Of a stretch of DNA of 64,000 bases, positions 16,273 to 34,403 are shown piece after piece; within the stretch, counting starts at the first letter, position 1, and each line of letters starts with the position of its first letter. Source of the stretch: an uncultured Methanosarcinales archaeon (GTDB lineage Archaea > Nanobdellota > Nanobdellia > Woesearchaeales > GW2011-AR9); the NCBI GenBank assembly GCA_964434885.1, contig CAYSWQ010000003.1, forward strand, positions 6,882-70,881, written 5' to 3'. The position numbers and the translations under genes were made by a program. Below the pieces are notes generated by a model. That model saw only the letters and a list, made by a program, of their open reading frames with translations, was not told where the DNA came from and did not search any database.

Positions 16273-17073
16273 TTAAGTTGATTGGGTGGCAAAATCTAAA
16301 GCAAAATAATATTTTATGGGCATTAGTTGTTTATTTTTGTAAGCTGAATTTTTGCTTTCTACACAAAAAGCCACTTTTCTAGCTTCGGAATAAAACTTGT
16401 TGGTGCATTCTGAAAATTTCCATTTTGTTAATTTTTTATTTTTAATGTGGTTTTTGATACAGGTTTCTAAGTTTGATTTTTTATTACAAGCAGCCACTAA
16501 ATTGTTGGCAATTTTTCTTAATAAGTTGTATTCTTCTTGTAAATCAAAACCGAGATCAATCTCGAAATCAAGATCATAAGTATAAAGGGCATAATATTTA
16601 TCTGTTTTTGTAGATTTAATTGTTTTTTGATTTGCTTTTCCAAGAATAAAATTCTTTTCTAATTTAAGTGTATTATAATTCTTTTTGGGGCTTTTTTTAT
16701 TTACTCTTTCAGTTAAATCAGTTATAAAATCTTTTGAAAGTGAGGGAGCACAAGAAGCAAAATCTTTTTTCTTATTCCAAACAACATAATGTCTTGTTTG
16801 TGGGCCAATTTTGCCGCAAGGAATTTTATTTATAAATCCTGCGTTTGTGGCTAGTCGATGAATTGAATCTCCAGCTGCTTGTTTAACTAAAAAGTCTGAA
16901 TTGATTAAATCTTGTTCGGCTAAAAAATAATAATTATTAAGAAAATCTATCTGCCAAGTTCCTTTTGGTTCTAAGTTTAAATTAGTTGTTTGGCTGAAAT
17001 AAAAAAATACACCCAAAGCTATAAAAAATCCAAAAACAATGATCCAATGAAAAATTAATGCTTTTTTGTTCAT
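16273..17073 (-). CDS. Pilin-like/secreted protein with class III-type signal (MNKKA + hydrophobic helix)
   Basis: MNKKALIFHWIIVFGFFIALGVFF N-terminus. Last gene of the coupled minus-strand block. Confidence 0.4.
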   Translation of the reverse strand: MNKKALIFHWIIVFGFFIALGVFFYFSQTTNLNLEPKGTWQIDFLNNYYFLAEQDLINSDFLVKQAAGDSIHRLATNAGFINKIPCGKIGPQTRHYVVWNKKKDFASCAPSLSKDFITDLTERVNKKSPKKNYNTLKLEKNFILGKANQKTIKSTKTDKYYALYTYDLDFEIDLGFDLQEEYNLLRKIANNLVAACNKKSNLETCIKNHIKNKKLTKWKFSECTNKFYSEARKVAFCVESKNSAYKNKQLMPIKYYFALDFATQST

Positions 17074-17076
17074 TTT

Positions 17077-17580
17077 TTAAGTTATCTTAAACCCGGTGGC
17101 TGCTTTGTACCGGGCTTGGCCCTCGCTTGTTTTTTCCTCACCTACAATTGTAACAGAAATGGGTTGTTTTTTTCCAATGATCTCTGCACTGGCATAATTT
17201 GATGTTAACCCTCCCCCAACAACAATTGGATAGTACAATTTTTCACCAGGGTATTTGATGATAATGCCTTTAAAAAAAGGGTCTTTTGAATCTAAAAATA
17301 TTTTCTTTACATTTTTTTCTAAACTTGGTTTCAAAGAAGGATTGTTTTCAGTAGCAACGATTAATTCTGTCAAGGTTAATCCATTTTCAGTCGGAGCTCT
17401 TAAATAATTAAACAAAACTTGTTTGGATCTAATTTCATCTAAATTAGAGATTGATGTCAAGTCATTTTTTTTTAAACTCCCATTCAAAATAATACTTGTA
17501 AAAAAGAAAAAAAATACTAAGAGTATAATAATAGTTAACAAATCAATTGCGTCTCCAAATTGGGCTTTCTTATTTCTCAT
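17077..17580 (-). CDS. Archaeal type IV pilin-like protein (class III signal peptide)
   Basis: MRNKKAQ|FGDAIDLLTIIILLVFFFF. 167 aa. Confidence 0.45.
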   Translation of the reverse strand: MRNKKAQFGDAIDLLTIIILLVFFFFFTSIILNGSLKKNDLTSISNLDEIRSKQVLFNYLRAPTENGLTLTELIVATENNPSLKPSLEKNVKKIFLDSKDPFFKGIIIKYPGEKLYYPIVVGGGLTSNYASAEIIGKKQPISVTIVGEEKTSEGQARYKAATGFKIT

Positions 17581-18029
17581 GTTTTTACTTGAACTCCAAC
17601 TTCCAACAAGGCGGGCTGGATTTGGTCTCCTTTTTTTACTAAAATATTTTTGTAGATAGTATAATCTCGGTTATTGAGATAATATTTAGTTGTGGTTATT
17701 TCTTGATTAATATTTGTTAATTTCAAACCAAAATTTGGTTCTTTTTTATCATCCACGGGATAACATTCCCTTAATTTTGTTTCAGTAAATTTTTTGGGAT
17801 CTATAATTCCAGGATAAGTTCGATCTCCTTTTTGATAGGCTAAACAATCAGGAGAATTGATGAATCGATCAATAATGAATGTTGTTTTTATTTGATCGGG
17901 AACGTCGACTACATTTTTTTGAAAATTAAAAATTTGTATAGCGAAGCCGATAATAGCAATTGTAAATACAGTCGATAGAATCATCCAAAAGATAGTTTTT
18001 CTTAGTTCATATTGGGCTTTTTTGTTCAT
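17577..18029 (-). CDS. Archaeal type IV pilin-like protein
   Basis: MNKKAQ|YELRKTIFWMILSTVFTIAIIGFAI. ATGA overlap with neighbour. Confidence 0.45.
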   Translation of the reverse strand: MNKKAQYELRKTIFWMILSTVFTIAIIGFAIQIFNFQKNVVDVPDQIKTTFIIDRFINSPDCLAYQKGDRTYPGIIDPKKFTETKLRECYPVDDKKEPNFGLKLTNINQEITTTKYYLNNRDYTIYKNILVKKGDQIQPALLEVGVQVKT

Positions 18030-18439
18030 TGGTTAACCTCTTTGTCTTTGCATTTACGAATAGTTATGGTTTTGTCTTTTTTTTCTAAACAAAGGGTTTT
18101 TGGTTTTTCTATTGCGCTGTTGGCAAAATAACCCGAAGGTAAATAAAAAGATTTTTGGTTCCTTAGTTTTTCAGATTCCCCTGGTTCAAATACTGAAATT
18201 GTACCTTGTCTCATAACAAAATTGTATTTGCTGATATTATAAGGGTATTGTACTACTGCATCTCCTGGAACACTTACTAAAACATCAATCATCATTTTGA
18301 TATCTTGAGCAGTTCTAATTTTGCTATTATTTTCTGAGGTCGCTAAATTCTTAGCATAGCTAACCAAAATAAAAATAAGAGCCAAAACAGCCAAAACTTC
18401 AAAAATCATTACTAAGATACTGGCAGCTTTTTTGTTCAT
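18026..18439 (-). CDS. Archaeal type IV pilin-like protein
   Basis: MNKKAAS|ILVMIFEVLAVLALIFILV. Confidence 0.45.
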   Translation of the reverse strand: MNKKAASILVMIFEVLAVLALIFILVSYAKNLATSENNSKIRTAQDIKMMIDVLVSVPGDAVVQYPYNISKYNFVMRQGTISVFEPGESEKLRNQKSFYLPSGYFANSAIEKPKTLCLEKKDKTITIRKCKDKEVNQ

Positions 18440-18454
18440 TTTGATAAATCTTAA

Positions 18455-19267
18455 TTATTGATTAATTAACCCATATACAGGTAATTGTTTGCCTTTTACC
18501 ATTTTGTAGGTGACTTTAAGTTCATTACATTTTGGATCCAAACAAATAAAAATTTTATTTTCTTTATTTAGTAGATAAATTGCATTTCTACGATAACCTA
18601 AATTAAAGGAAAAAGGAAAATTGTTTAAAGGCAATAGTTGGTGTCCGGCAGAATCTCTTCCGAGGAAAAATCCTCCTTTTAAGGTATATTCTTCTTTGTT
18701 TGTTCCTTCTATTGCCAACCAATCAGTAAAAGGAATAGTTCTCATTTTGGTGATATCTACTCGGAGTTCTTTTTGGGTTCCAAGATTTATTTTTCCGATT
18801 CCTTTGCATTTAGATTTTGTGTATTTGATAATTGGCTTCCAATTTTTTTGTTTATCATAGAATGAAGATACTGATTTGAAAAGACAGATACAGGCCTGTT
18901 CTTTACAATCTTTTGCTTCAGGATTAGACCAAGAAACACACCCTTCTTTTTGATTGGGTAAAGTTAAACTCTTAGCACAAGCTTCTACTTTAGCTGCCCC
19001 TTGACTAAAACCCACAATTGTTGTTTTGTCATCTAAAATTAAATTGGTTATTTCTGTTTGATCTTTGTTTTTTTCAAAAGTTATGATTTTTTTAACAAAT
19101 TTATCAAAACTGTCTTCGGCTTGAGAAGGACCAATAAATTTGGCTACGAACATAATGGTAGGAACAAACACCATGAAAGTTAAAACTATCATTACTAGTG
19201 CTTTGAGGACTAATTGTGCTTTTTTCATTGAATTAAATTTATGTTTGTTTACTCTTTTTAGTATCAC
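18455..19267 (-). CDS. Pilin-like protein (probable start at internal MKKAQ, position 19228)
   Basis: MKKAQLVLKALVMIVLTFMVFV. Cys-containing globular domain. Confidence 0.4.
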   Translation of the reverse strand: MILKRVNKHKFNSMKKAQLVLKALVMIVLTFMVFVPTIMFVAKFIGPSQAEDSFDKFVKKIITFEKNKDQTEITNLILDDKTTIVGFSQGAAKVEACAKSLTLPNQKEGCVSWSNPEAKDCKEQACICLFKSVSSFYDKQKNWKPIIKYTKSKCKGIGKINLGTQKELRVDITKMRTIPFTDWLAIEGTNKEEYTLKGGFFLGRDSAGHQLLPLNNFPFSFNLGYRRNAIYLLNKENKIFICLDPKCNELKVTYKMVKGKQLPVYGLINQ

Positions 19268-19592
19268 AATCTTTGTTAAGTTCGGTTACTTTTGCATCAG
19301 TAGTAGTAGTACTTGGACAACCAGGGAACTCTTTGTTTTTAGTTGTTCCTGCATCACAAGGACATTTATCAAATAAGTCACCAATATTATCATTGTCATA
19401 ATCTCCTAATGCACTAATTTTTTCTCCTAGGTTTCCATAAGCACCTTCTCCGCCTTTCTGGAACCAAATGATTACTAAAGTAACAACAACAACTGCTAAG
19501 ATTGCTAGAACCAATTGTTGCCAAGTCATGGCTTTTTTATTGAATAACATTTTATCACCATTAATTTTTTTATTTTCCTGCAATATCTCCAC
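19239..19592 (-). CDS. Pilin-like protein with thrombospondin-type-3-like Ca-binding repeat
   Basis: MLFNKKAMTWQQLVLAILAVVVVTLVII. DYDNDNIGDLFDKCPCD. Confidence 0.4.
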   Translation of the reverse strand: MEILQENKKINGDKMLFNKKAMTWQQLVLAILAVVVVTLVIIWFQKGGEGAYGNLGEKISALGDYDNDNIGDLFDKCPCDAGTTKNKEFPGCPSTTTTDAKVTELNKDCDTKKSKQT

Positions 19593-20484
19593 TAAAACAA
19601 TTTTTTTGTGCGGTTTTCAAATCACTCAAATAAATTGTGCTGGTATCTCTTTCTGTGTAGAGGTTTTTGTAGATATCGGCGGCGGCACTGAGAGATTGTT
19701 GGGTTGCACCAGCCGCTCCACTTCCAGCCAAATATAATCCTGGGCCAGCAAAAATACCACTCTTCAACATAATTACTCCTCCGGCTGCTACGGCCAGGTT
19801 TCCGAAAGCCCGACCTCCTTTTTTGAGAATTGTTTCCCAAGAAACTTTTTTGTTCTTAGCACCAAAACTAATCCCATAAGCATGGTTAGGTTTAATATCT
19901 GCTTGAATAACGACTCTACCTGGACCTCCGTGGCTTTGAAAATATTCTATGTATTTTTTGCCTGCCTTATCATAAGGATTATTAAGAAGATATTTATAAA
20001 AATCATTAAAAGAAATTTGGTCTCCTTTCTCAAAACCATCGGTATTTTTAATAAAAAGAGAATAACATAAAAAACAATCATTTTTTTTACTAAATTCAGG
20101 TAAAACTGTTTTGGTTGCCCCTTCTTCAACTGCTTCTGATGCTAAGTCTTTCTTAAGTATTTCTTCGTATCGACCTTCCCCAAACATCCACCAACATTGA
20201 GCCATGCTATCTGCGATCTGTTTTTTTACTTTTTCTTTATCTTCTTTGATATCTTGATCACAAGTTTTACATAATAAAGGAGAAGTGTGGATGTCTTGGT
20301 TATCTATTTGAATAGTGGTAGTGGTAGCTCTTAAGTTGACACTCCATTGACAAATCTCTTCTGCTTTTTTACAATCATCAGTAGTACTAAAATTAATAAC
20401 TATGGGGGCCAAAACTAGAAAAGAAACAATGGTAATGATTGCCCCAACTAAAAAAGAGGAGGCTTCTACTGCTCGTTTATTCAT
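19570..20484 (-). CDS. Pilin-like/secreted protein (304 aa)
   Basis: MNKRAVEASSFLVGAIITIVSFLVLAPIV N-terminus. First gene of the 20.5-16.3 kb block. Confidence 0.4.
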   Translation of the reverse strand: MNKRAVEASSFLVGAIITIVSFLVLAPIVINFSTTDDCKKAEEICQWSVNLRATTTTIQIDNQDIHTSPLLCKTCDQDIKEDKEKVKKQIADSMAQCWWMFGEGRYEEILKKDLASEAVEEGATKTVLPEFSKKNDCFLCYSLFIKNTDGFEKGDQISFNDFYKYLLNNPYDKAGKKYIEYFQSHGGPGRVVIQADIKPNHAYGISFGAKNKKVSWETILKKGGRAFGNLAVAAGGVIMLKSGIFAGPGLYLAGSGAAGATQQSLSAAADIYKNLYTERDTSTIYLSDLKTAQKNCFSGDIAGK

Positions 20485-20597: not shown

Positions 20598-21512
20598 ATG
20601 AAATTTTGGTTCAAAAAAATGTTTCCTTACTTAGCAGCGGGAATAATGGTGGTAAGTAGCTGTAAGAAGGAAGAAGACGATAAAAATGTACTTCAATCAT
20701 TAGATAAAATAGTACAAGAAGAAGCTCTAACTCCTGTGCCTTGGCATTTTCATAAAAAAATAACTAAATACATGGTTCGAGAAATTAATAAAGATGAATC
20801 AAGGGAATGTATCTTGACCGAATATGTTAAAGAAGATTTGGATCGAAGATCAGAAGAGTTAATTTATGTTTTGAAGAAAGTCCCCAAAGTGGGAGATGGT
20901 TTAGGTGATTTTTTTTCTAGTACAAAAAAAATGTTAATTGATTATCCTCAACACATAACCACTCAACTAGAAAAAAAAGGGGTGCTCAAAGATACTTGTC
21001 CAGCATTGGTGACTTGGCAAGGTGATCCTCTTATCTGGAATATCTCTCCTAGTTTGTCATTAAGAATATATCGGTGTATGAAAGAAGTTCCAGTAGAAAA
21101 GTGTACAGATGGCATAGACAATGATTGTGATGGAGAAGAAGATTTTGGAGATAGTGATTGTCATAAAACCTCTCCAAAAATACAAGAACCCAAATGCAAT
21201 TATTCTGTTTTTATGTCAAAATCAAAAAAAAGAATTAGTCAATATTTAGGAATTTTTCCTAGCCAAATTACTTTTGAAAAAGGCGAATTTAGACCAGGAA
21301 AAGGGGTTTCGGTAGCAATATCTACACCTAATGGGGATGCTTTATTTGGAAAAATTCTGCCGATTTTAGAAAAAAAATTAGGTAGGGGATCTGGTCGAAT
21401 TGTAAAAATGTGGAGCCATATTGATGGGGGCCCAATGGCTAATGGGTGTTATGTCAATCTGCAAAGATATGATCGCTTGGTGAGAATCCAGGTTTTTTCA
21501 GATATTTATTAA
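20598..21512 (+). CDS. Putative lipoprotein with MopE-like CxDGxDNDCDG metal-binding motif
   Basis: Signal + VVSSCKKEED lipobox-like. CTDGIDNDCDGEEDFGDSDC. Only plus-strand gene inside the pilin-like region, convergent with a 4-nt overlap onto 21509..22882. Confidence 0.4.
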   Translation: MKFWFKKMFPYLAAGIMVVSSCKKEEDDKNVLQSLDKIVQEEALTPVPWHFHKKITKYMVREINKDESRECILTEYVKEDLDRRSEELIYVLKKVPKVGDGLGDFFSSTKKMLIDYPQHITTQLEKKGVLKDTCPALVTWQGDPLIWNISPSLSLRIYRCMKEVPVEKCTDGIDNDCDGEEDFGDSDCHKTSPKIQEPKCNYSVFMSKSKKRISQYLGIFPSQITFEKGEFRPGKGVSVAISTPNGDALFGKILPILEKKLGRGSGRIVKMWSHIDGGPMANGCYVNLQRYDRLVRIQVFSDIY

Positions 21513-22882: not shown

Positions 22883-23025
22883 TATCTATTTCCTCCAAAC
22901 TTAGAAAGCAAGCCTTGAAGAAAACTACCTAAATCATTATACCAAATAACTACTAAGATTAACAAAACAATTGCTAAAATCATTAAAACTAAAATCCACA
23001 TTTCCATTCCTTTTTTTCCTTTCAT
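22882..23025 (-). CDS. 47-aa single-TM peptide (hand-translated; not in ORF track)
   Basis: MKGKKGMEMWILVLMILAIVLLILVVIWYNDLGSFLQGLLSKFGGNR. TAATG overlap with the downstream gene and ATGA overlap with the upstream one. Confidence 0.3.
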   Translation of the reverse strand: MKGKKGMEMWILVLMILAIVLLILVVIWYNDLGSFLQGLLSKFGGNR

Positions 23026-23168
23026 GGCAATAACCTTCCTCTTAGTTTAAAGATGTAGAATAACAAAGCCAAACCCATAATCACAACCAAAATAATTACC
23101 ACGAGGTAAGTGGTGCTAATGTGTTGGGCCTTGTGGTTGTTAAAAAGAGACTTTAATTGAGTAAACAT
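23022..23168 (-). CDS. 48-aa single-TM peptide (hand-translated; not in ORF track)
   Basis: MFTQLKSLFNNHKAQHISTTYLVVIILVVIMGLALLFYIFKLRGRLLP. Coupled to both neighbours. Confidence 0.3.
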   Translation of the reverse strand: MFTQLKSLFNNHKAQHISTTYLVVIILVVIMGLALLFYIFKLRGRLLP

Positions 23169-23171
23169 TTT

Positions 23172-23513
23172 TCATGTTTTTTTCTTAATGCCCAGACAGC
23201 AAACTGACTTTTTGGTTGTGTCGGTAGAAGGTTTACAAGTGAAAGCAGACGAAAAACGGCATTCGGAAAAACCTACCCCTGCTCCACTACCACAAGCAGC
23301 ACTACATGCTTTACTGGCAGTGTTTGTTCCTTGGGTTGTGCAAAAACCACCTTTACTTTCACAATTAAGTAATCCAGATTCTAAAGTGCCAGTTTTCCCA
23401 GTGAAAATTAAAAGCAAGATTACTAAAACCACCAAAGCAATAATGGCAGTAATAACAATCCAAAAAGTGTTACCTTGGGCTTTCTTCATTTTATTTCCAC
23501 GCGCAAGTAGCAC
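23172..23513 (-). CDS. Archaeal type IV pilin-like protein with Cys-rich C-terminus
   Basis: MKKAQ|GNTFWIVITAIIALVVLVILLLIF. C-terminus CESKGGFCTTQG...CSAACGSG...CCLG. Confidence 0.45.
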   Translation of the reverse strand: MLLARGNKMKKAQGNTFWIVITAIIALVVLVILLLIFTGKTGTLESGLLNCESKGGFCTTQGTNTASKACSAACGSGAGVGFSECRFSSAFTCKPSTDTTKKSVCCLGIKKKT

Positions 23514-23847: not shown

Positions 23848-23988
23848 CTCAATACAAATATATCTTTCTAAAAAAGAATTAATCTATATAAATCTTACCT
23901 TTCGTTTAAGTTTATTTAAGAGAAAGAAGGTAAAAATATATTTAATACTTGTTGTCTAATTTTTTAAACTATGTTTTTAATATTGCTA

Positions 23989-26235: not shown

Positions 26236-26236
26236 T

Positions 26237-26749: not shown

Positions 26750-29700
26750 TTTTTCCTCTCATCACTAATTTTTTTTAATTTATCGAAGATGCTTTTGGCT
26801 TCTCCTTTAGAAACTACTTCGTGAACAGGTTTGTCTTGAGTTTTGGTAGCAATGTTTTCTAATTTTGCAAAAACACCTTTTTCTCCGTGTTTTAAACCAG
26901 GCCGAATAGTTTCTTTCTTTTCAACATATTTTTGAGCTAATTGACCCACTCTTTCTTGGTGAGGAATTTCTTTATTTAATAAAGGATTAAGGTGAGGGAT
27001 TGTTTTAGATTCTTGGCTAAATTCTCCAAAAAGCGATTTTCTAACTTGGGTTTTTTCTTTTTTGGCTCTAACTCTTCGTAAACCAAAAATCTTGTGTTTC
27101 CAAGAAGTGATGGTTGGTTTTGGTTTTTGACTAACTGAAGGGGGGGCTGGTCCTCTAAATTTAGCAGGCATTGGTTTTCCTGGACCATGAACAGATTCAT
27201 AATAAAAGACCAAGTAACCACTTCCTCCAAGAACCAAGATAATTCCTAAGGATAAAATTATCCATGCTAACAAACTAGATTTGGAGGTTTTGGTTGTAGT
27301 TTTAGTTGTGGTTGGTTTGGTTGTAGTGGTTGGTTTTTTAGTAATAGTTTTCTTTGGAGCATCAGCATAACAAGGATCATAATATCCAGAATATTCTTCG
27401 TAATTCGAATAATTATCGGTATCATAATCTTCTTTGTCATCTGTTATTCCATCTCCATCAGAATCTTTTTTGAGATAGTCTAAATAACATTTAGTACTTT
27501 GGTCATTATATAATTTTTCCCAAGAATCAGGTAAACCATCTCCATCAGTATCTGCAGAAGATTGGGAAGTTGTGGTTTGTCCAGATGCACATCCAGTTGA
27601 ATCGACATATTTGCCGGCAGTAGTACTGGCACATTTATCACAACTATCTGTAACTCCATCTCCATCAGAATCTTTGAAAGTTATTTTTGTTGTTCTAGTT
27701 TTGTTGTTACCTTTTGGATCAGCAACATAATAACAAATCCATTCAGTTCGTTTTAATGAAATCTTTTGACCATTATAATTAAATGCGGGTTTACAACTAC
27801 CTTCAACAGAACTTTGATAATAATCAAACTTGTCGCAACTTGTTTCGTCAGTACATTTCATCTCTACTTCTACTGCACTACAAGTATCATTAGTTTGAAA
27901 AGAGACAACTGGAGCAGTGACATCTTTATTACATTCAGAATATTTACTATCAACTGCTAAGAAACCATCACTCTCTACTAAAGTTCCAGTGTTTCCGGCT
28001 TTATCAGTTGCTTTTACTTTAATGAAATACTTTCCATTTTTAGTTAATTTGTATTTTATTTTGAAAGGTGAAGTAGCAGCCAAAGAGCCTTTAGAAACTA
28101 TTTTTTTAACAGAGCTATTAGTAACTTCATATAATTCATAATAATAACTAGAGAGGTTTCCTTCATCAGTATAAACATATATCTTTGGAGTATCACTCAA
28201 ACCACAAGAATATTTTTGATCATTGACACTAGTTATTTTTGGTGGGGTTTGATCAACAATAAATTCTATTTTGCCTTCTCTTTTTTCACCCGCAATATTA
28301 CATTTTATTAGATAATAATATTTGCCTTCTGTTAATTTTCCTAAAGAGTGTTGGTGTTTAGTAGAACCAGTAGTTTTGAAAGTAGTGGTATTATATTTAC
28401 AAATTGCTCTCTTGTTAGTTGTTGCTCCTAATTTAACTGCTGTTCCAGAAACATATCCTTTGGGAGAAGTAGAGAGAATATTTCCTTGAACAGAATAATC
28501 TACAGTAAAAGTGATATTTTTTGGTTCAGAAACATTACCTGCTCCATTTTTACATTGAGTAACAAGATTGTATGTTTTTTTAGTCCCACCAAATGAAATT
28601 CTGAACCAAGTGGTGTGTTTGGTATTTAATGTTTTATTATTGACTCCTGGAAAAGGATATATCATGGAGGAATAAGTTGCCTTACCATCATTGTATTTAC
28701 AAATAGTTTTATCGTCGGTCTCAATAAATAAATTAGTGCCTACTCCTTCATTAACAGAAGCTGGTTGAGCATAGGCTTTTTTAATTACTGGTTTGGTGGG
28801 ATCATATTCTAAATTAATTTTCTGAACTGGCCCTAATTTATTACCTAAATCTTTGCACTTAACAAAAATTGTTTTAATTCCTCCTTTTTTGTTGTAGGTA
28901 GAAATAACCTTGCCGGGGAATTTACTTGTTCCATCATTATAATAATAATTTCCTCCAGATTTTGTTTTCTTTAGTTTTTGATGAGAAGGCACTTTTTCAT
29001 AATTAAAAATAGGGTTGAAATCAAAACGACAACTGCTAGTTGGTACTTTGGTGGAAATAACTAAACTGAAATTTGGGTGATAACTAATACCCCATTTTTC
29101 TCCATTATAAGAATAAGGAGTGGGACTGACTAAATTGATTCCAAACCCTTCAATAGATACTTGACCACAATTAGGAGGGGTTTCTTTGTTTCCTCCAGTA
29201 TCTACAGAATAATAACAAACTTGAGTAGATTTATTTAAACTAACTGGTTTAGTGAATTCTTTATATCCGGAAGAAAACTGAGAAGCACAACCAGAACCCA
29301 AACAATAAAAGGTTTTGTTGTAACCAAAACCAGAAACAGAATATTTGAAACTACTAATTTTGGCAGAATCTACAAAAATAGATTTCCAACCTTTAGTAGA
29401 TTGAATTACGGTTCTATTTCCTTCAGTTAAAACTATGTTAGTTTTTGGGCCCGAAATATCAATTTGAAAAATAAAAAAATCTTCTTTAATTTTTTGAGTT
29501 AAAAGATCTTTACAAATGGCTTTGTATGTTCCACTATAATTTCCTGTTTTTAAGGAAAGAGATTTAGTTTTATGTTTTTTATTTGTGGTATCAGCAGTAA
29601 AGTCTGCTACTTTTAAATTTTTGGCGTCGTATAAGCTACAAGTTGCTTTGGTAGCTGTCTTTAATTGGAAATAAGGGGAAGTGGTAGTTATTGGTCCTTT

Positions 29701-32700
29701 TGGATAAATGATATCTATGGCTGGTTCTAAATCAAAAACAAATTGTTTATTTTGAGTATTTTTATTATTGTAATCATCTATACAATTAATAGTTAAGTTG
29801 TAAATTATCCCCGGTAAACTTTTGAAGATGGCTTGTTTATTTTTCTCTTGACGAGTTATTTTTTTGGTTTGTAATGTGCTTTTAGGAAGTAAAGGATCTA
29901 ATTTAAATTCACAACCCATTGGTTCATTGATGCCAGTTAAATAAATTGTTAAATCTGTTTTATCGATTGTAGTAGTATAATTACTTTTGATTTGAAATTG
30001 AGGTTTTTCAGTGTCAATAAAAATAAATTCTTCGCGAACAGTTTCTTGATTAAAATATCTATCTTTAGAATAATATCTGAGGCGATAGGTTTCCCCTTTA
30101 ATGATTTTTCCTTGTAGCGCTTTTACAATATCGGCGGAAGCAATTTCAGTATTTAATTTACCGGGGTATTTTGTCTCTTGGAAAGAAGTACATTTTGGTG
30201 TATTGGATTTAGAATCAGCAAGACAATAACCCAATACCCCTAAGCGGCTTTCATTGTCTGTGCCTTGGAAAGTTAAATTTGTTTGTGATAAAGAAACAAT
30301 TTTTACTTTTCCGGCTGGAAGGATACTTGTAGTTGGAGCCTGATTATCTATTTGACAAAGAGTTGTTTCTCCTGCCGTAAACTGAGAACAATCATCTTTG
30401 CCATCACCATCTCCATCTTTGATGCATCCATGTTCGTCAAACTTTTTTGCTTGACCTTTCCAAACACATTTGCCCCAACCACATTGATCTTTGGAAGAAG
30501 TGATGGTTCCAAGTGAATTTTTTAAAGGTTGATCTCCAACACATTCAGTTTGAGTACTATAAGAATAACAATTGTGAGTTTTGTCTGGTTGAGTACCACA
30601 AGATTTACATTCAGTTAAGTCGTAATAAGAGAAACACCTTCCTAATTGAGAACAAACGGAAGAAGTACAATAATAATTTTCAAAAAGAGAGGAAGAGGCA
30701 CTACAACTTTTACATTGGTCATCTTTTTTATAGTCTTTTTCAACACAATAACCATGGCCAGTTTCTTCCAAGATTGGTAAAGAAAGAATATTTTCAAAAT
30801 TTTTATAGATATTTAACCCCGTGCCAGCTGAAACCCAATTACAAGTAGTACCTAAACAATTATTGATATCACAAGCATCTTTGCTTTGATAATCAAAACA
30901 AGATTTGATGTTAGCACAGCTATCACATTTGTTGACTACGGATTGAGTGTAATCATAATAACAGTAGTTTGTAGGTTCTCCTGATTTAATAGTAGTTGAT
31001 TTAACTCCATAACAAGTTTGACGATTGTAATATAAACCAAAAGGAGTAGCTGCTTGTGGAATCAAACTACATTTTCCAGCATCTTTACATGTGGCAGTAG
31101 TAGAAGTTATTTCAGCACAATAATAAGCACTACCTTTTGTATCTAAAACAGAACAATCTTTAGAAAGGGTTTTTTTATTTTGATTATTACAAGACCACAT
31201 TTTCTTTCTATCTTTTAAATCGTTAGAACAAAAAGTGGCCCATCCTGCTTTTTCTGAATATTGATTCTCACAGATTTGATCTCCCATTGTTACTGAGATT
31301 TTAACAGGGGTAGAAAACCTAGTTTTAACATCAGTATAGACTGCAGTGATTTGATAACTATATTTGCCACCCCATTCTACTTGATCATCTAAATAAGAGA
31401 ACATGGCAGGAGAAGCAGAAAATTGAGCAACTTGTTTGCCATTTTTAAACTTAACAATTTGATAGGCACTAACTTCAGGACAAGGTTTAGTCCATTGTAA
31501 GGAAATTTTCTTAACTCCTTTAATATGATTAGCAGTAAACTTTTCTACACTTTTAGATTGATTTTTTCCACCATAACTACATTGACCAATATATTTAGTA
31601 AGAAGAAGGTCTTGGGTTTTTGTTTCTCCAGATTGTAAATTTATTTTTAATTTCTTTTTCAATTCATAATCCGAATACGTAGCAGAGATTTCTTGCGATC
31701 CAGTAGATAATTCTAATTGGTAATAACCCAAAGGAGAATATTGGGAGTAACTTTTGAATATTCCATTGACAGAAATACTAGCACCATATATTTTTTCATC
31801 TCCAATATTATCTCCATCTTTATCTAACCAAACATAACCTTTAATCCCTTGTAATTTGGTTGTTTCTAAGAGAAAATTTTTCTTGTCGTCTTGTGTTTTG
31901 AGAGTATAACTTTGGTCTTTGGTAGTGTAACCATATTTAGCAAGAGTAAAAATATATTTTTCTTTTGGGACTAGATTTTTAGCAGTGTAAAAACCATTTT
32001 TATCAGATAGAACTGAACCTGATGTAGAGGTGCTTTTCCAAGAAATTAGAACTCTATTAAGTGGTTTGCCATCTTTGTCTTTAACATAACCAGATAGTTG
32101 GGCAGTACCTACTAATTTTTTTAGGGTGAAGTTTAATTCTGTAGTTTGGTTGGTTTTGAGTGTGATTGGTTGATTGATTGTAATATATCCGGATTTTATT
32201 AGTTTGATTAAATGAGTTCCAGGATCATTTTGGAAAGAATAAATTCCAGTTGAAGATGTTGTTTGTGTTTTTCCTTTTAATTCAATTTTAACGCCAGAGA
32301 GAGGGTTTTTGTTTTGGTCGAGTATGGTCCCTTTTAAAGTAACTTGGTTTGTCTTTACTCCACAAGATTGAGAACATTTTGTTGAATCCATTGTGGGGTC
32401 TGTTAGTTTGGTAATCCAAGATTCAAAAGTGGTTAAACCTTCTTTTTTAGCAATATTAAGACAATTCCACTTTGTACCTCCACTTTGTTGATAATAACAA
32501 GTGTTAGAAACTTTACAACACCCAGCAGAACACCAATCATTATAATTTGTTTCAGTTACTTCTTGCCAGCCAGTTTCTTTACCTTTATCTTGTTTTTCAG
32601 CTTCTAACTGACATTCCCCTTGGGTCATGGTTTGACAGTTTACACTACAAGTGATTGATTTACAGGTGGGAATTCCGGAACAATCTTTTCCTGGGTTGAA

Positions 32701-32895
32701 AAAAGAAGTGTATTGTTTAGTTTCTCCAAGGGCTTTGATTTTGTAATCTGCTAGTGCTTTTTCTTCGGTGATTTTCTGACAATAGAGGCTTTTTGAGGAT
32801 TTGGGATAATAATAACATCCATCTAAAGCAAAAGCAGAACTAATTAAAACTAGGAAAATTATAATACTAATTACAGCTACACCTCTTTTTTTCAT
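26746..32895 (-). CDS. Giant (2049 aa) type-I membrane surface protein / putative adhesin. Domain order: signal peptide, N-terminal Cys-rich domain, carboxypeptidase-regulatory-like and other beta-rich domains, thrombospondin-type-3-like Ca-binding repeats, Thr/Lys-rich stalk, TM helix, about 150-aa cytoplasmic tail
   Basis: MKKRGVAVISIIIFLVLISSAFA signal. CSAGCCK and WNCLNIAKKEGLTTF in the N-domain. GVKIELKGKTQTTSSTGIYSF (CarbopepD_reg-like). DSDGDGVTDSCDKC / DTDGDGLPDSW / DSDGDGITDD. TTTKPTTTKTTTKTSK stalk. LLAWIILSLGIILVLGGSGYLVFYY TM. Confidence 0.7.
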   Translation of the reverse strand: MKKRGVAVISIIIFLVLISSAFALDGCYYYPKSSKSLYCQKITEEKALADYKIKALGETKQYTSFFNPGKDCSGIPTCKSITCSVNCQTMTQGECQLEAEKQDKGKETGWQEVTETNYNDWCSAGCCKVSNTCYYQQSGGTKWNCLNIAKKEGLTTFESWITKLTDPTMDSTKCSQSCGVKTNQVTLKGTILDQNKNPLSGVKIELKGKTQTTSSTGIYSFQNDPGTHLIKLIKSGYITINQPITLKTNQTTELNFTLKKLVGTAQLSGYVKDKDGKPLNRVLISWKSTSTSGSVLSDKNGFYTAKNLVPKEKYIFTLAKYGYTTKDQSYTLKTQDDKKNFLLETTKLQGIKGYVWLDKDGDNIGDEKIYGASISVNGIFKSYSQYSPLGYYQLELSTGSQEISATYSDYELKKKLKINLQSGETKTQDLLLTKYIGQCSYGGKNQSKSVEKFTANHIKGVKKISLQWTKPCPEVSAYQIVKFKNGKQVAQFSASPAMFSYLDDQVEWGGKYSYQITAVYTDVKTRFSTPVKISVTMGDQICENQYSEKAGWATFCSNDLKDRKKMWSCNNQNKKTLSKDCSVLDTKGSAYYCAEITSTTATCKDAGKCSLIPQAATPFGLYYNRQTCYGVKSTTIKSGEPTNYCYYDYTQSVVNKCDSCANIKSCFDYQSKDACDINNCLGTTCNWVSAGTGLNIYKNFENILSLPILEETGHGYCVEKDYKKDDQCKSCSASSSLFENYYCTSSVCSQLGRCFSYYDLTECKSCGTQPDKTHNCYSYSTQTECVGDQPLKNSLGTITSSKDQCGWGKCVWKGQAKKFDEHGCIKDGDGDGKDDCSQFTAGETTLCQIDNQAPTTSILPAGKVKIVSLSQTNLTFQGTDNESRLGVLGYCLADSKSNTPKCTSFQETKYPGKLNTEIASADIVKALQGKIIKGETYRLRYYSKDRYFNQETVREEFIFIDTEKPQFQIKSNYTTTIDKTDLTIYLTGINEPMGCEFKLDPLLPKSTLQTKKITRQEKNKQAIFKSLPGIIYNLTINCIDDYNNKNTQNKQFVFDLEPAIDIIYPKGPITTTSPYFQLKTATKATCSLYDAKNLKVADFTADTTNKKHKTKSLSLKTGNYSGTYKAICKDLLTQKIKEDFFIFQIDISGPKTNIVLTEGNRTVIQSTKGWKSIFVDSAKISSFKYSVSGFGYNKTFYCLGSGCASQFSSGYKEFTKPVSLNKSTQVCYYSVDTGGNKETPPNCGQVSIEGFGINLVSPTPYSYNGEKWGISYHPNFSLVISTKVPTSSCRFDFNPIFNYEKVPSHQKLKKTKSGGNYYYNDGTSKFPGKVISTYNKKGGIKTIFVKCKDLGNKLGPVQKINLEYDPTKPVIKKAYAQPASVNEGVGTNLFIETDDKTICKYNDGKATYSSMIYPFPGVNNKTLNTKHTTWFRISFGGTKKTYNLVTQCKNGAGNVSEPKNITFTVDYSVQGNILSTSPKGYVSGTAVKLGATTNKRAICKYNTTTFKTTGSTKHQHSLGKLTEGKYYYLIKCNIAGEKREGKIEFIVDQTPPKITSVNDQKYSCGLSDTPKIYVYTDEGNLSSYYYELYEVTNSSVKKIVSKGSLAATSPFKIKYKLTKNGKYFIKVKATDKAGNTGTLVESDGFLAVDSKYSECNKDVTAPVVSFQTNDTCSAVEVEMKCTDETSCDKFDYYQSSVEGSCKPAFNYNGQKISLKRTEWICYYVADPKGNNKTRTTKITFKDSDGDGVTDSCDKCASTTAGKYVDSTGCASGQTTTSQSSADTDGDGLPDSWEKLYNDQSTKCYLDYLKKDSDGDGITDDKEDYDTDNYSNYEEYSGYYDPCYADAPKKTITKKPTTTTKPTTTKTTTKTSKSSLLAWIILSLGIILVLGGSGYLVFYYESVHGPGKPMPAKFRGPAPPSVSQKPKPTITSWKHKIFGLRRVRAKKEKTQVRKSLFGEFSQESKTIPHLNPLLNKEIPHQERVGQLAQKYVEKKETIRPGLKHGEKGVFAKLENIATKTQDKPVHEVVSKGEAKSIFDKLKKISDERKK

Positions 32896-33020
32896 TTTTT
32901 TCGTTTTAAAAGCTTGATTATAACTTCTTCATAACTCTGCCTGGGATGAATTTTTAATTTATTGAGCGCTTTGACTGTCTCTTTGGAAAGTTTGATAGTA
33001 GTGATTTGTTTTTGTTTCAT
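32892..33020 (-). CDS. 42-aa ribbon-helix-helix (CopG/MetJ-like) DNA-binding protein, translationally coupled (ATGA) to the giant surface protein gene
   Basis: Hand translation MKQKQITTIKLSKETVKALNKLKIHPRQSYEEVIIKLLKRKK. Beta-strand (TTIKLSKET) followed by two helices in RHH register. Not in ORF track. Confidence 0.45.
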   Translation of the reverse strand: MKQKQITTIKLSKETVKALNKLKIHPRQSYEEVIIKLLKRKK

Positions 33021-33042
33021 CTTATTTTAAGCTTATTTCTTA

Positions 33043-33054
33043 TGGTATACCTAA
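33043..33054. promoter_or_regulatory. Palindromic box tGGTATACCtaa (copy 1), about 24 bp upstream of the RHH gene start
   Basis: GGTATACC is a perfect 8-bp palindrome. An identical 12-mer recurs 90 bp further upstream. Confidence 0.35.
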
Positions 33055-33132
33055 GTATCTTTTTGTATATTTATGTATCTTTTATTATATTTTGGTGTCG
33101 TTTGATATGCTTTATTATAATAAAGTATTCTG

Positions 33133-33144
33133 TGGTATACCTAA
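33133..33144. promoter_or_regulatory. Palindromic box tGGTATACCtaa (copy 2)
   Basis: Identical 12-mer to 33043-33054. Both lie in the 300-bp intergenic region ahead of the RHH/giant-protein operon. Confidence 0.35.
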
Positions 33145-33194
33145 AGAATTTAAAAAGGTTTTGGTTGGAGAAAGGACGAGAAAAAATGAAAAAA

Positions 33195-34403
33195 TTACTT
33201 ACGATCAACGATTTCTTTTAAGCGGTGGAAAATGGCTTGGGCTTCTTTTTCACCAATTTTTTTGATTTCTTCGGTTTTTAATTTAGCAATATTTTTTTCA
33301 ACTTCCTGAAAGAAATCTCTCTCTTTTTGGGATTTTTTCCAGTGGGTTTTCTTTAATTCATGGATATGGGCTACTTTTTCTAGTAAATCAACATATGTTT
33401 TTTTGTGGTGGGTTGGTTCACCAAAAATATCAAACAATTCTTTTTTTTTCTTTTCAATGTGATGTTTTCTTTTAATGTGGTGTTCTTCGGGTTTTGAATA
33501 TGAAGGGATCTTAAAAAGTGGTTTTTTAGTAAGGGTTGGTTTTTTTATTTTGGGAATTGGTTGTTTGTTTCTTTGATGAGCTATATATAAGAAGGCAGCA
33601 ATTAGGATTAACACTAATAAGAACCAAAACCACAATCTAGAAGAATTTTTTTTGGGTGTTTGTGTTGAAGTTGATTTAATAGTTGTTTGAGTTTTTGGTT
33701 TTGTTGTGGTTTGTGAAGAAGTTGTTGTTTTTGAAGTAGATGTTAGTTGTGTTATAGTGCTTGCTTGAGAAGATGTTGTTTGGGTAGCTAAACCAGTAGT
33801 TGTTGGTGTTTTTTGAGTTGAAGAAGTAGTTGGTTGTTGAGCAGTTGAAGTTGTTGTTTTTGGTGTTGTGATTGATGAAGTAGGTTTTGCTGTAGTTGAT
33901 GGGTAAGTTGTTGCTTGAGTGGTTGTGCTTTGAGTACATAAAGAACTACAAGCTGTTTTTGTTGTTTTAGAATCAAAATTAAATGTAGTAATACCTTTGT
34001 TTTTAGCAGCGATTTCACAAGACCATTGATTTTTTTGATAAGTACATGATTTTTGATTATTATAAGTGAATTGACAACAACCTGGACTACACCAAGAATA
34101 TTCTTTGCCGCTGGGAATTGGACCACCAAGACATTTACCTTGGTATTGATAATCACAGGTGCTTTTACAATAAATTTCTTGACATTGAGGAAAGTAAATA
34201 GAATTTTCACATTTTTGATTAGAGAAAAAAGATTCTTTAAAATTACAAGTACTATAAGTAGAACATTCATCTTGAGCATCTGTTTTTTCTAAGTCATAAC
34301 AATATAATGCGCTGCTTTTGAAAGTGAAACAACCTTCTTCAGCTAAAATAAAAGGAATTGAGATTAGGAAAAGAATACCAATTATTAAACCTCTTTGATT
34401 CAT
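33195..34403 (-). CDS. Surface protein paralogous to the giant protein: signal peptide, same N-terminal Cys-rich domain, mucin-like Thr/Ser/Gln stalk, TM helix, same conserved cytoplasmic tail
   Basis: N-domain CSPGCCQ and WSCEIAAKNKGITTF match CSAGCCK and WNCLNIAKKEGLTTF of the giant. About 100-aa T/S/Q-rich stalk. TM RLWFWFLLVLILIAAFLYIAH. C-terminus EKEAQAIFHRLKEIVDRK against EAKSIFDKLKKISDERKK in the giant. Confidence 0.6.
   Translation of the reverse strand: MNQRGLIIGILFLISIPFILAEEGCFTFKSSALYCYDLEKTDAQDECSTYSTCNFKESFFSNQKCENSIYFPQCQEIYCKSTCDYQYQGKCLGGPIPSGKEYSWCSPGCCQFTYNNQKSCTYQKNQWSCEIAAKNKGITTFNFDSKTTKTACSSLCTQSTTTQATTYPSTTAKPTSSITTPKTTTSTAQQPTTSSTQKTPTTTGLATQTTSSQASTITQLTSTSKTTTSSQTTTKPKTQTTIKSTSTQTPKKNSSRLWFWFLLVLILIAAFLYIAHQRNKQPIPKIKKPTLTKKPLFKIPSYSKPEEHHIKRKHHIEKKKKELFDIFGEPTHHKKTYVDLLEKVAHIHELKKTHWKKSQKERDFFQEVEKNIAKLKTEEIKKIGEKEAQAIFHRLKEIVDRK

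What the first reader, a model, noticed from the sequence alone, without database searches (positions are those of the whole stretch)
16273..34403. 18-kb coupled super-operon of about 15 pilin-like proteins plus a 2049-aa surface protein: candidate novel attachment appendage
Every minus-strand gene from 33020 down to 21509, and again from 20484 to 16273, is joined to its neighbour by ATGA or TAATG overlaps or gaps under 25 bp. Most products start with a short basic region (MNKKAQ, MKKAQ, NKKGQ, NSKGQ, KKAM) directly followed by a hydrophobic helix, the hallmark of archaeal class III (prepilin-like) signal peptides. The first gene of the chain is a 2049-aa type-I membrane protein with TSP3 Ca-binding repeats and a carboxypeptidase-regulatory-like domain. 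No FlaI/PilB-type ATPase, PilC/FlaJ platform or FlaK/PibD peptidase is present in the 64 kb. So this is either a minor-pilin/adhesin module served by machinery encoded elsewhere, or a distinct surface structure. In a small AT-rich (possibly episymbiotic) archaeon, such a locus is a prime candidate for a host-attachment organelle.
Basis: partly seen in the sequence, partly recalled or inferred. Interest (0 to 1): 0.85.

Follow-up and report, generated by a model that had tools for sequence, protein, structure and literature searches.

The report
Conserved pilin-like surface operon of Woesearchaeota
About 17 back-to-back genes, kept in the same order in at least 80 species of tiny DPANN (Woesearchaeota) archaea, encode a giant membrane-anchored surface protein and at least 13 unannotated proteins with type IV-pilin-style signal peptides; they are probably the parts of an unseen pilus-like surface structure whose assembly motor is encoded elsewhere.

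Summary
The observation largely holds. From 33020 to 21509 and from 20484 to 16273, the minus-strand genes are tightly packed. The exceptions are a 150-nt spacer before g7 and one plus-strand gene (g10). Two tiny ORFs (48 and 47 aa) fill the g8-g9 gap.

Thirteen to fifteen products carry a short basic leader, K-K-[G/A], then a 20-25-residue hydrophobic helix. Across about 80 related genomes the G/A at -1 is nearly invariant, and Gln at +1 is invariant in g4 and g6, while leader length varies from 4 to over 30 residues. This is the class III signal-peptide signature, of the K-G-Q type cleaved by EppA in Methanococcus Epd pilins.

The cluster is strictly collinear in every sufficiently long locus among 83 relatives. 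Its core is nearly as conserved as the adjacent RPA gene. Conserved TATA boxes occur only before g2 and g7.

No pilus ATPase, platform or prepilin peptidase was found in the window or within 10 kb of g4 in any relative. No curated family or solved structure matches the small proteins.

Best reading: the structural module of a lineage-specific type IV filament-like organelle. The attachment function is inferred, not shown.

The parts
33195..34403 (-). g1, 402 aa: Sec signal peptide, Cys-rich domain, Thr-rich linker, one TM segment, basic cytoplasmic tail. A small paralogue of g2.
   Evidence: N-terminal 180 aa are 31% identical to g2 (E 5e-12). The tail motif is shared with g2. A recognisable homologue lies directly before g2 in 34 of the 82 scanned relatives. 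TM segments.
33043..33144 (-). Two exact copies of TTAGGTATACCA (palindrome GGTATACC), 90 bp apart: candidate operator for g0.
   Evidence: These are the only two matches in 64 kb. Operator function is inferred.
32892..33020 (-). g0, 42 aa ribbon-helix-helix protein (DUF7557), overlapping the g2 start by 4 nt. Lineage-specific.
   Evidence: Pfam DUF7557 E 2.6e-7, RHH_1 weak. No homologue in 82 related loci.
26746..32895 (-). g2, 2049 aa giant surface protein: Sec signal peptide, Cys-rich N-domain, three CarboxypepD_reg domains, Ig-like domains, three DxDGDGxxD Ca-type motifs, Thr-rich stalk, TM 1879-1897, conserved cytoplasmic tail of about 150 aa.
   Evidence: Orthologues of about 2000-2200 aa occur in all loci that reach this position. 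The tail motif EAK.IF.KLK.IS.KRK is conserved. TTTATATA lies upstream in 62 of 65 relatives.
26237..26749 (-). g3, 170 aa pilin-like (KKA|MAIGQVF).
   Evidence: Position -1 is G or A in 81 of 83; leader 5-36 aa; median identity 49%.
25084..26235 (-). g4, 383 aa pilin-like (KSA|QVQV): long N-terminal helix, then a beta domain, then a helical bundle.
   Evidence: Gln at +1 in 83 of 83. AF2 pLDDT 92, helix 11-68. 1736 clusters at 50% identity. No Pfam, NCBIfam or PDB match.
24528..25058 (-). g5, 176 aa pilin-like (KKA|QMRMME).
   Evidence: Q+1 in 79 of 81, E+6 in 81 of 81. Related to g6 by hhalign, probability 85.
23989..24531 (-). g6, 180 aa pilin-like (SKG|QIELIG).
   Evidence: Q+1, E+3 and G+6 each in 77 of 77.
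23839..23988 (-). 150-nt spacer holding a TTTATATA box (23885-23892) and GAGGTG before g7: conserved internal promoter.
   Evidence: It is the only large gap conserved inside the cluster (median 176 nt). TTTAWAWA occurs within 100 nt upstream of g7 in 56 of 65 loci, against 0-8 hits per gene (44-82 loci each) for the ten other internal genes scanned, g3-g17. Window copy.
23491..23838 (-). g7, 115 aa small pilin-like (KKG|QGLSLNVIIV), four invariant Cys. Candidate major subunit.
   Evidence: 395 homologues, about 50-80% identical among the 120 listed. Alignment A2. AF2 pLDDT 81, helix 12-55 plus a three-helix head.
23172..23489 (-). g8, 105 aa small pilin-like (KKA|QGNTFW), paralogue of g7.
   Evidence: 49% identity over the N-terminal 39 aa. 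hhalign probability 98. Position -1 is A or G in 68 of 68.
23022..23168 (-). g8a, 48 aa headless pilin-like micro-protein (HKA|QHIS plus one helix).
   Evidence: Detected by sequence in 18 loci; positional equivalents of 38-40 aa occur in two relatives.
22882..23025 (-). g8b, 47 aa headless pilin-like micro-protein (KKG|MEMW plus one helix).
   Evidence: The 1-nt overlap with g9 is conserved (median -1 in 39 loci).
21509..22882 (-). g9, 457 aa: N-terminal anchor without the KK[GA] site, 12 Cys. The most length-variable member (111-702 aa among detected relatives, some truncated ORFs).
20598..21512 (+). g10, 304 aa lipoprotein-like protein on the opposite strand. An insertion, not part of the conserved cluster.
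   Evidence: Homologue in only 1 of 82 loci, at another position. Elsewhere g9 and g11 abut (median -4 nt).
19570..20484 (-). g11, 304 aa pilin-like (KRA|VEASS).
   Evidence: Position -1 is G or A in 54 of 57. Present in 56 of 56 flanked loci.
19239..19550 (-). g12, about 103 aa pilin-like (KKA|MTWQQ) with a DxDxD Ca-type motif. Related to g7 and g8.
   Evidence: hhalign probability 97-98. Position -1 is G or A in 55 of 55. TSP_3 weak.
18455..19228 (-). g13, 257 aa pilin-like (KKA|QLVL).
18026..18439 (-). g14, 137 aa pilin-like (KKA|ASIL).
   Evidence: Position -1 is A or G in 53 of 54. Present in 48 of 48 flanked loci.
17577..18029 (-). g15, 150 aa pilin-like (KKA|QYEL). The site is less conserved in relatives.
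   Evidence: G15, A12, S8 of 49.
17077..17580 (-). g16, 167 aa pilin-like (KKA|QFGD).
   Evidence: Sequence-detectable in 13 loci; positional equivalents occur elsewhere.
16273..17073 (-). g17, 266 aa pilin-like (KKA|LIFHW). Last gene of the cluster, followed by RPA.
   Evidence: Position -1 is G or A in 45 of 46. RPA follows in 32 loci.

Best explanation
This is the structural, entirely extracytoplasmic gene module of a Woesearchaeota-specific type IV filament-like surface organelle.

Shown by sequence comparison:
- At least 13 consecutive genes encode proteins with a variable-length basic leader, a conserved K-K-[G/A] junction and a single long hydrophobic N-terminal helix.
- The genes are kept in one fixed order across the lineage.
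- Conserved promoter motifs occur only before g2 and g7.

Inferred mechanism:
- The precursors are inserted by the Sec pathway.
- A prepilin peptidase encoded elsewhere cleaves after the G/A. Gln at +1 suggests an EppA-like enzyme.
- A PilB/FlaI-type ATPase and a TadC/FlaJ platform, also encoded elsewhere, extract the subunits from the membrane and stack them through their N-terminal helices.
- The four small subunits behind the internal promoter (g7, g8 and the headless g8a and g8b) would form the shaft.
- The conserved g3-g6 set, and the more variable g9 and g11-g17 set, would act as minor, priming or tip subunits.
- g2, a 2049-aa protein with a Cys-rich ectodomain, a C-terminal anchor and a conserved cytoplasmic tail, and its small paralogue g1 would be the associated envelope or adhesin component.
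- Contact with a host cell or a surface is the most plausible function for a DPANN organism, but nothing here tests it.
For: Class III signature. Position -1 is G or A in 81/83 (g3), 81/83 (g4), 78/81 (g5), 75/77 (g6), 66/66 (g7), 68/68 (g8), 54/57 (g11), 55/55 (g12), 53/54 (g14) and 45/46 (g17). Gln at +1 is present in 83/83 (g4), 77/77 (g6), 79/81 (g5) and 59/66 (g7). A buried Glu is invariant at +3 in g6 and at +6 in g5. Leaders range from 4 to over 30 residues.

Match to known sites. The experimentally studied Epd pilins have the sites KGQV, KGQL, KGQI and RAQI, and EppA requires Gln at +1 (PMC4371748).

Topology. Each protein has exactly one N-terminal hydrophobic segment. Nearly all have an even number of Cys.

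Structure predictions. AF2 gives an uninterrupted helix at 11-68 in g4 (pLDDT 92) and at 12-55 in g7 (pLDDT 81).

Shared N-terminal module. hhalign probabilities are 92-98 among g7, g8, g12, g8a and g8b.

Collinearity. The order is fixed in every sufficiently long locus among 82 scanned relatives and in one distant member. Gap medians run from -4 to +24 nt, except 176 nt before g7.

Promoters. TTTATATA occurs before g2 in 62/65 loci and before g7 in 56/65. It occurs in 0-8 loci before each of the ten other internal genes scanned.

Precedent. Pilin genes unlinked from pilB/pilC, and C-terminally anchored Cys-rich S-layer-like proteins in pilus loci, are both known.
Against: - No ATPase, platform or prepilin peptidase was found in the 64-kb window, in about 10 kb checked beyond the window end (L007) and about 7 kb beyond its start (L008, a contig from another sample), or within 10 kb of g4 in 83 relatives.
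- One preprint states that type IV pilus components are missing in DPANN genomes.
- No curated pilin family is hit: no Pfam family reaches its gathering score for any small protein (weak chance matches only), and no pilin family appears at all.
- Fourteen or more different pilin-like subunits is far more than in any characterised system.
- Conservation close to that of a housekeeping gene is unusual for pilins.
Confidence: 0.6

Rival explanations
1. The proteins are uncleaved signal-anchor (bitopic) membrane proteins. Together with g1 and g2 they form a fixed-stoichiometry envelope complex, such as an S-layer anchoring or pseudo-periplasmic scaffold, and not a filament. No ATPase or peptidase would be needed.
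For: No machinery is encoded in cis in any of the 83 relatives examined. Conservation is close to that of a housekeeping gene and the gene order is strict, as for a core cell structure. g2 looks like an archaeal S-layer-type glycoprotein, with a Thr-rich stalk, a C-terminal TM segment and a conserved cytoplasmic tail. Head folds are unlike pilins.
Against: A plain anchor does not explain a nearly invariant small residue at -1 in 13 separate families, invariant Gln at +1 in g4 and g6, conserved Glu inside the hydrophobic segment of g5 and g6, or leaders that vary freely in length upstream of a fixed junction. The helix continues well beyond membrane thickness in the g4 and g7 models.
Confidence: 0.2
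2. The signals are class III and are cleaved, but the product is not an adhesive pilus. It would be a short pseudopilus or bindosome-like assembly used for uptake (DNA, nucleotides, lipids or metabolites from a host) or for secretion.
For: Class III signals also serve non-pilus assemblies, such as the Sulfolobus bindosome, and, from general knowledge, bacterial T2SS and Com pseudopili. There are many distinct single-copy subunits in fixed order. Conservation is high. DPANN organisms depend on hosts for metabolites.
Against: No substrate-binding, nuclease, ComEC-like or channel domain occurs in the cluster. The giant Ig/CarboxypepD_reg/TSP3 protein looks more like an adhesin or envelope protein.
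Confidence: 0.15
3. The block is a mobile element, provirus or defence island carried by this genome.
For: A conjugation-like module (TrbC pilin, TraC/VirB4 ATPase, resolvase, methylase) lies about 14 kb away. g0 and g10 are lineage-specific insertions.
Against: The cluster sits between housekeeping genes. It is followed by RPA in 32 relatives and shows vertical-looking collinearity in 138 species genomes. There is no integrase. PHROGs gives one weak hit to a family of unknown function. GC content is not deviant.
Confidence: 0.02

Closest known systems
Epd pili of Methanococcus maripaludis (archaeal TFF 'system 1')
   Same: Several pilin-like proteins share K-[G/A]-Q processing sites. An 11-gene cluster is expressed as one transcription unit. 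The main pilin is headless. Large adhesin-like proteins sit in the locus. System 1 is reported in a few DPANN genomes.
   Different: The Epd locus carries its own ATPase, two platform genes and the EppA peptidase. Here none is in cis. This cluster has 14-16 pilin-like genes rather than about 5. No sequence or profile similarity to Epd families was detected. Membership is not established.
Bacterial type IV pilus minor-pilin/PilY1 priming complex and the T2SS pseudopilus tip (general knowledge; PilY-like adhesins in archaeal loci per Makarova 2016)
   Same: An operon of several different pilin-like proteins sits next to a very large non-pilin surface protein. The subunits share only the N-terminal helix.
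   Different: Those systems have 4-5 minor pilins. PilY1 is not C-terminally membrane-anchored and has no cytoplasmic tail. The bacterial G|F...E5 site differs from this one. No homology was detected.
DPANN 'dark-matter' pilin islands (Makarova, Wolf and Koonin 2019, PMC6393860)
   Same: These are runs of unannotated signal-peptide proteins in DPANN genomes, interpreted as diverged pilins.
   Different: Those islands were recognised because FlaI-type ATPase and TadC genes lie inside them. This cluster has none. It is also not fast-evolving: it is collinear across the whole lineage.
Haloferax volcanii PilA1-6 adhesion pilins
   Same: The pilin genes are not linked to pilB/pilC, and the H-domain is highly conserved among paralogues.
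   Different: Those are scattered single genes with redundant function, not a fixed 17-gene operon.
S-layer-like, C-terminally anchored, Cys-rich proteins in archaeal T4P loci (arCOG05471-type; Makarova 2016)
   Same: g2 and g1 have a Sec signal, many conserved Cys and a single C-terminal TM segment, and they sit in a pilin locus.
   Different: g2 is far larger, at 2049 aa. It has CarboxypepD_reg and TSP3-type modules and a conserved cytoplasmic tail of about 150 aa. Homology to arCOG05471 was not tested.

Membership tests
Type IV filament (TFF) pilins | Class III signal peptide: short basic leader, K/R at -2 and G/A at -1, with the cleavage site before the hydrophobic domain | tested here: met
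   Shown by sequence and by conservation across 42-83 orthologues per family for g3-g8, g8b, g11-g14 and g17, and 14 for g16. It is weaker for g15 and g8a and absent in g9.
Type IV filament (TFF) pilins | Actual cleavage by a prepilin peptidase | not testable with these tools
   This needs proteomics or a heterologous cleavage assay.
Type IV filament (TFF) pilins | Long N-terminal alpha-helix (about 50 residues), with its N-terminal half hydrophobic, carrying the head domain | tested here: met
   AF2 predictions give helix 11-68 in g4 (pLDDT 92) and helix 12-55 in g7 (pLDDT 81). Only these two of about 15 proteins were modelled.
Type IV filament (TFF) pilins | Head domain resembling a known pilin or archaellin fold | tested here: not met
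Type IV filament (TFF) pilins | Match to curated pilin families (Pfam or NCBIfam) | tested here: not met
   No Pfam or NCBIfam family reaches its curated cutoff for any small protein, and no pilin family appears at any threshold. The Flp1_like hit of g8b (E 0.0027, below cutoff) recurs in only 2 of 30 orthologues and is judged non-specific.
Complete TFF system | PilB/FlaI-type (T2SSE) assembly ATPase | tested here: not met
   Absent from the window and its checked flanks, and from within 10 kb of g4 in 83 relatives. Genome-wide presence could not be tested.
Complete TFF system | PilC/TadC/FlaJ (T2SSF) platform protein | tested here: not met
   No polytopic protein occurs in the cluster. The only polytopic ORFs in the window are the T4SS-module proteins, SpoIIM, and two ORFs that merely overlap real genes on the other strand or frame (33788-34279, 55563-56102). 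Genome-wide presence could not be tested.
Complete TFF system | Prepilin peptidase (A24/FlaK/PibD/EppA) | tested here: not met
   No Pfam hit, and no polytopic ORF with a GxGD motif in the window. Genome-wide presence could not be tested.
Epd pilus / TFF system 1 | EppA-type site with Gln at +1 | tested here: met
   Gln at +1 in g4 (83/83), g6 (77/77), g5 (79/81) and g7 (59/66). In the window it is also present in g8, g13, g15 and g16.
Epd pilus / TFF system 1 | ATPase, two platform genes and EppA in the same locus | tested here: not met
Sulfolobus bindosome (Bas) | Class III signals on solute-binding proteins | tested here: not met
   No substrate-binding-protein domain in any member.
Mobile element or provirus | Integrase or viral hallmark genes, with patchy distribution | tested here: not met
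   PHROGs gives only one weak hit, to a family of unknown function. The housekeeping flanks and the order are conserved in 138 species genomes.

The most novel reading that the evidence does not exclude
The cluster may encode a Woesearchaeota-specific surface organelle that is not an ordinary type IV pilus. It would be a hetero-oligomer of about 14 different pilin-like subunits in fixed stoichiometry, coupled to a giant transmembrane protein whose conserved cytoplasmic tail links it to the cell interior. It would be assembled either by an unrecognised machinery or without a PilB/PilC-type motor. It would serve as the host-contact or intercellular-bridge apparatus of these DPANN cells.
Probability: 0.2. 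Interest if true: 0.85.

Novelty: new variant of a known kind. Interest (0 to 1): 0.62.

Why it matters
Woesearchaeota are among the most widespread uncultured DPANN archaea. How they contact hosts or surfaces is unknown. The comparative-genomics papers I could search do not mention pili for them, and one preprint states that type IV pilus components are missing from DPANN genomes.

This cluster gives about 17 concrete, lineage-wide, currently 'hypothetical' genes as candidates for their main surface organelle. The g4 family alone has 1736 clusters at 50% identity.

The cluster is invisible to ATPase-centred pilus detection and to Pfam and NCBIfam. It therefore also marks a gap in annotation.

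Its conservation close to that of a housekeeping gene, its fixed order and its two conserved promoters make it directly testable. Suitable tests are metaproteomics (mature N-termini), metatranscriptomics, structure modelling of complexes, and cryo-ET of enrichments.

Tried and rejected
- Pfam and NCBIfam on all cluster proteins gave nothing for the small proteins.
- The Flp1_like hit for the 47-aa g8b looked attractive as a headless Flp/Epd-type pilin. It recurs in only 2 of 30 orthologues, no more often than unrelated TM families, so I rejected it as evidence of homology.
- Profile searches of g4 and g7 against PDB sequences found nothing meaningful.
- I looked for a T2SSE-like Walker A motif in 82 related loci. 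The only hit (L014) is an ABC transporter at a broken cluster.
- I considered the nearby TraC/VirB4 + TrbC + polytopic module as the missing motor. I rejected this because it sits with a resolvase and a methylase and is not found next to the cluster in the relatives examined.
- I considered the YdjM membrane hydrolase downstream of RPA as a processing enzyme. There is no supporting evidence beyond position.
- I could not obtain a Woesearchaeal ATPase or peptidase query, so presence in the same genomes is untested. One homologous-protein search was left unused for that reason.
- Rfam found no RNA family in the region.
- Literature searches found no description of this cluster.

Full report
SOURCE AND SETTING

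The window is an AT-rich (about 31% GC) archaeal chromosome segment. It carries RadA, RPA, Hjc, Cdc6, PolD DP1/DP2, MCM, TBP, TFE and RNase P p30. It is part of the 108.9-kb JGI metagenome contig Ga0115649_1000524. Every homologue of the cluster proteins that carries a source name is labelled Woesearchaeota, Nanoarchaeota or Nanoarchaeia. Several genome record titles say 'uncultured Methanosarcinales'; I take these to be generic mislabels.

THE OBSERVATION

I numbered the minus-strand genes g0 to g17.
- g1 (33195-34403) stands 174 nt upstream of a 42-aa ribbon-helix-helix gene, g0 (32892-33020; Pfam DUF7557).
- g0 overlaps the start of the 2049-aa g2 by 4 nt.
- The next junctions are -4, +1, +25 and -4 nt. 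A 150-nt spacer then precedes g7.
- After g7 the junctions are +1, +3, -4 and -1 nt. This holds because two tiny ORFs of 48 and 47 aa (g8a, g8b) fill what first looked like a 289-nt gap. The public gene calls include the 47-aa ORF, and relatives have both.
- g9 ends against a convergent plus-strand gene, g10.
- After a 113-nt divergent spacer, g11 to g17 follow with junctions from -4 to about +19 nt.

g2 has three CarboxypepD_reg domains (E 2e-25). Its TSP3_bac hit is below threshold, but three DxDGDGxxD motifs are readable. It has a Sec-type signal peptide, a Thr-rich stalk, one C-terminal TM segment and a basic tail of about 150 aa.

Pfam over all ORFs of at least 110 aa in the window found no secretion ATPase, T2SSF platform or A24 peptidase. 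No polytopic ORF has a GxGD motif. About 10 kb beyond the window end (the same contig) and about 7 kb beyond its start (a contig from another sample) also carry none.

ARE THE N-TERMINI CLASS III SIGNALS?

In the window, 15 consecutive products show M-x(0-20)-[KRS]-K-[GA] followed by a single 20-25-residue hydrophobic segment, and no other TM segment. My crude pattern also catches ordinary Sec signal peptides (g1, g2 and the 1779-aa neighbour). The decisive test was therefore comparative.

I collected 80 loci from species-representative genomes (138 genomes had a g4 relative) plus loci from metagenomes. I then aligned the N-termini of each family.
- The residue at -1 is G or A in 94-100% of orthologues in g3, g4, g5, g6, g7, g8, g11, g12, g14 and g17 (about 90% in g8b).
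- Positions -2 and -3 are K or R.
- Gln at +1 is invariant in g4 (83/83) and g6 (77/77) and near-invariant in g5 and g7.
- g6 has invariant Glu at +3 and Gly at +6. g5 has invariant Glu at +6.
- The leader upstream of the junction varies freely, from 4 to over 30 residues (see also alignments A1 and A2).

A fixed small residue before the hydrophobic domain, with a free-length leader, is what a prepilin-peptidase site looks like. It is not expected for a plain membrane anchor. The K-G-Q form is the one found in M. maripaludis Epd pilins (KGQV, KGQL, KGQI, RAQI), whose peptidase EppA requires Gln at +1 (PMC4371748). g9 lacks the motif, and g15 and g8a are weaker.

CONSERVATION AND OPERON ARCHITECTURE

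I ran phmmer with the window proteins against all ORFs of 82 related loci. The result is one order in every locus long enough to show it: g1 g2 g3 g4 g5 g6 g7 g8 (g8a g8b) g9 g11 g12 g13 g14 g15 (g16) g17 RPA (YdjM), all on one strand.
- Occupancy in loci flanked on both sides is 100% for g2-g7, g9, g11, g14 and g15, and 96-98% for g8, g12 and g17.
- g0 and g10 are not conserved: 0 and 1 of 82 loci. They are insertions in this lineage.
- A distant g4 relative (profile E about 1e-47) sits in the same arrangement.
- The g4 family has 1736 clusters at 50% identity in a 1.84-billion-protein library.
- Median identity to the window proteins is 49% (g3), 40% (g4), 46% (g5), 43% (g6), 50% (g7) and 44% (g8). 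It is 28-39% for g9 and g11-g17. The adjacent replication protein RPA is at 54% in the same genomes. The first half of the cluster is thus almost as constrained as a housekeeping gene.
- Median intergenic distances are -4 to +24 nt for adjacent gene pairs, except 176 nt before g7.
- A canonical archaeal TATA box (TTTAWAWA, usually TTTATATA) lies within 100 nt upstream of g2 in 62 of 65 loci and of g7 in 56 of 65. It is present in only 0-8 loci for each of the ten other internal genes scanned.
- The window copy before g7 is at 23885-23892, followed by a GAGGTG ribosome-binding site.

I infer two transcription units, g2-g6 and g7-g17. The four small subunits g7, g8, g8a and g8b come first in the second unit.

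In this genome the box before g2 is replaced by g0 and two exact TTAGGTATACCA palindromic sites.

STRUCTURE AND RELATIONSHIPS

- AF2 with deep alignments gave a confident g4 model (pLDDT 92): a continuous helix at 11-68, then a beta domain and a C-terminal helical bundle.
- The g7 model is usable (pLDDT 81): a helix at 12-55 plus a small three-helix head locked by four invariant Cys.
- Neither head matches a solved pilin. Profile searches against PDB sequences found nothing.
- hhalign shows that g7, g8, g12, g8b and g8a share their N-terminal 40-60 residues (probability 92-98). Most other pairs relate only through the N-terminal segment. TM bias inflates such scores.
- g1 is a small paralogue of g2, with the same Cys-rich N-domain (E 5e-12). 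Both end in a conserved cytoplasmic motif...EAK.IF.KLK.IS.KRK. This suggests a cytoplasmic partner.
- The proteins have even Cys counts throughout, which fits extracellular disulfides.

INTERPRETATION

The best-supported reading is the structural module of a type IV filament-like organelle specific to Woesearchaeota, served by a peptidase, ATPase and platform encoded elsewhere. Unlinked pilin genes, and S-layer-like Cys-rich C-terminally anchored proteins in pilus loci, have precedent.

The sequence-level class III signature and the operon architecture are shown. Cleavage, polymerisation, the identity of the major subunit and the attachment function are inferred.

Four points count against a simple pilus:
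- the complete absence of machinery in cis in 83 relatives;
- the very large number of distinct subunits;
- conservation close to that of a housekeeping gene;
- non-pilin head folds.

The main rival is an uncleaved anchor complex forming part of the envelope with g2. A cleaved but non-adhesive pseudopilus or bindosome-like device is a variant. A mobile-element origin is excluded by synteny.

COMPARISON WITH WHAT IS KNOWN

The closest system is the M. maripaludis Epd pilus (TFF 'system 1'), which shares the K-G-Q sites, many pilins and one transcription unit. That locus carries its own ATPase, platforms and EppA, and I found no sequence similarity to it. I therefore do not file this cluster as a member.

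Makarova et al. described diverged pilin islands in DPANN, but these were recognised through embedded FlaI and TadC genes. ATPase-centred detection would miss this cluster. The Woesearchaeota and DPANN genomics papers I could search do not mention it.

I rate it a new variant of a known kind, with about a 0.2 chance that it is something more distinct.

Noticed in passing
window 244-3879 (-) and beyond the window start (L008 10001-18149): A conjugation/T4SS-like module lies next to a C5 DNA methylase (2950-3879). It has a 107-aa TrbC/T4SS_pilin protein (2322-2645), a 704-aa protein with about 10 TM segments (244-2358), and, just outside the window, a 1036-aa TraC/VirB4-like ATPase, DUF5679 and a resolvase. 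This is probably an integrated mobile element in a DPANN genome.
   Followed up: partly
window 43267-44362: A 1.1-kb non-coding stretch at 21-24% GC lies directly upstream of cdc6/orc1 and near the PolD genes. It holds inverted copies of a TTCCTATGGA-type box at 43568-43584, 44173-44189 and 44254-44287. This is a likely replication origin with ORB-like boxes.
   Followed up: partly
window 32892-33194 (-): A 42-aa ribbon-helix-helix gene (DUF7557) is inserted in front of g2, together with two exact TTAGGTATACCA sites 90 bp apart. It is absent from all 82 related loci and replaces the TATA box seen before g2 elsewhere. This looks like lineage-specific regulation of the operon.
   Followed up: partly
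window 20598-21512 (+): A lipoprotein-like 304-aa gene (lipobox VSSC, weak MopE-type metal motif) is inserted on the opposite strand between g9 and g11. Those two genes abut in relatives.
   Followed up: partly
window 11959-12742 (-): tRNA-Leu(CAA) (11959-12049) is overlapped by the 3' end of a 251-aa LAGLIDADG_3 ORF (11987-12742).
   Followed up: no
window 35098-40437 (+) and 61835-63805 (+): Two further giant secreted proteins are present: a 1779-aa Cys-rich protein with a Stig1-like N-terminus, and a 656-aa He_PIG/Big_9 protein. In several relatives a homologue of the 1779-aa protein lies upstream of g1 on the same strand as the cluster.
   Followed up: partly
whole window: TTTAWAWA is under-represented: 85 matches against about 130 expected from shuffles. 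This is consistent with selection against stray TATA boxes.
   Followed up: no
window 14717-15178 (-): A YdjM-family membrane hydrolase overlaps the RPA stop by 1 nt. It follows RPA downstream of the cluster in about 10 relatives.
   Followed up: no
L014 11000-16000: In one relative the cluster stops after g6 and is followed by an ABC transporter, so the g2-g6 unit can be separated from g7-g17. L020 likewise showed only g2-g6 in the phmmer table but was not inspected further.
   Followed up: partly
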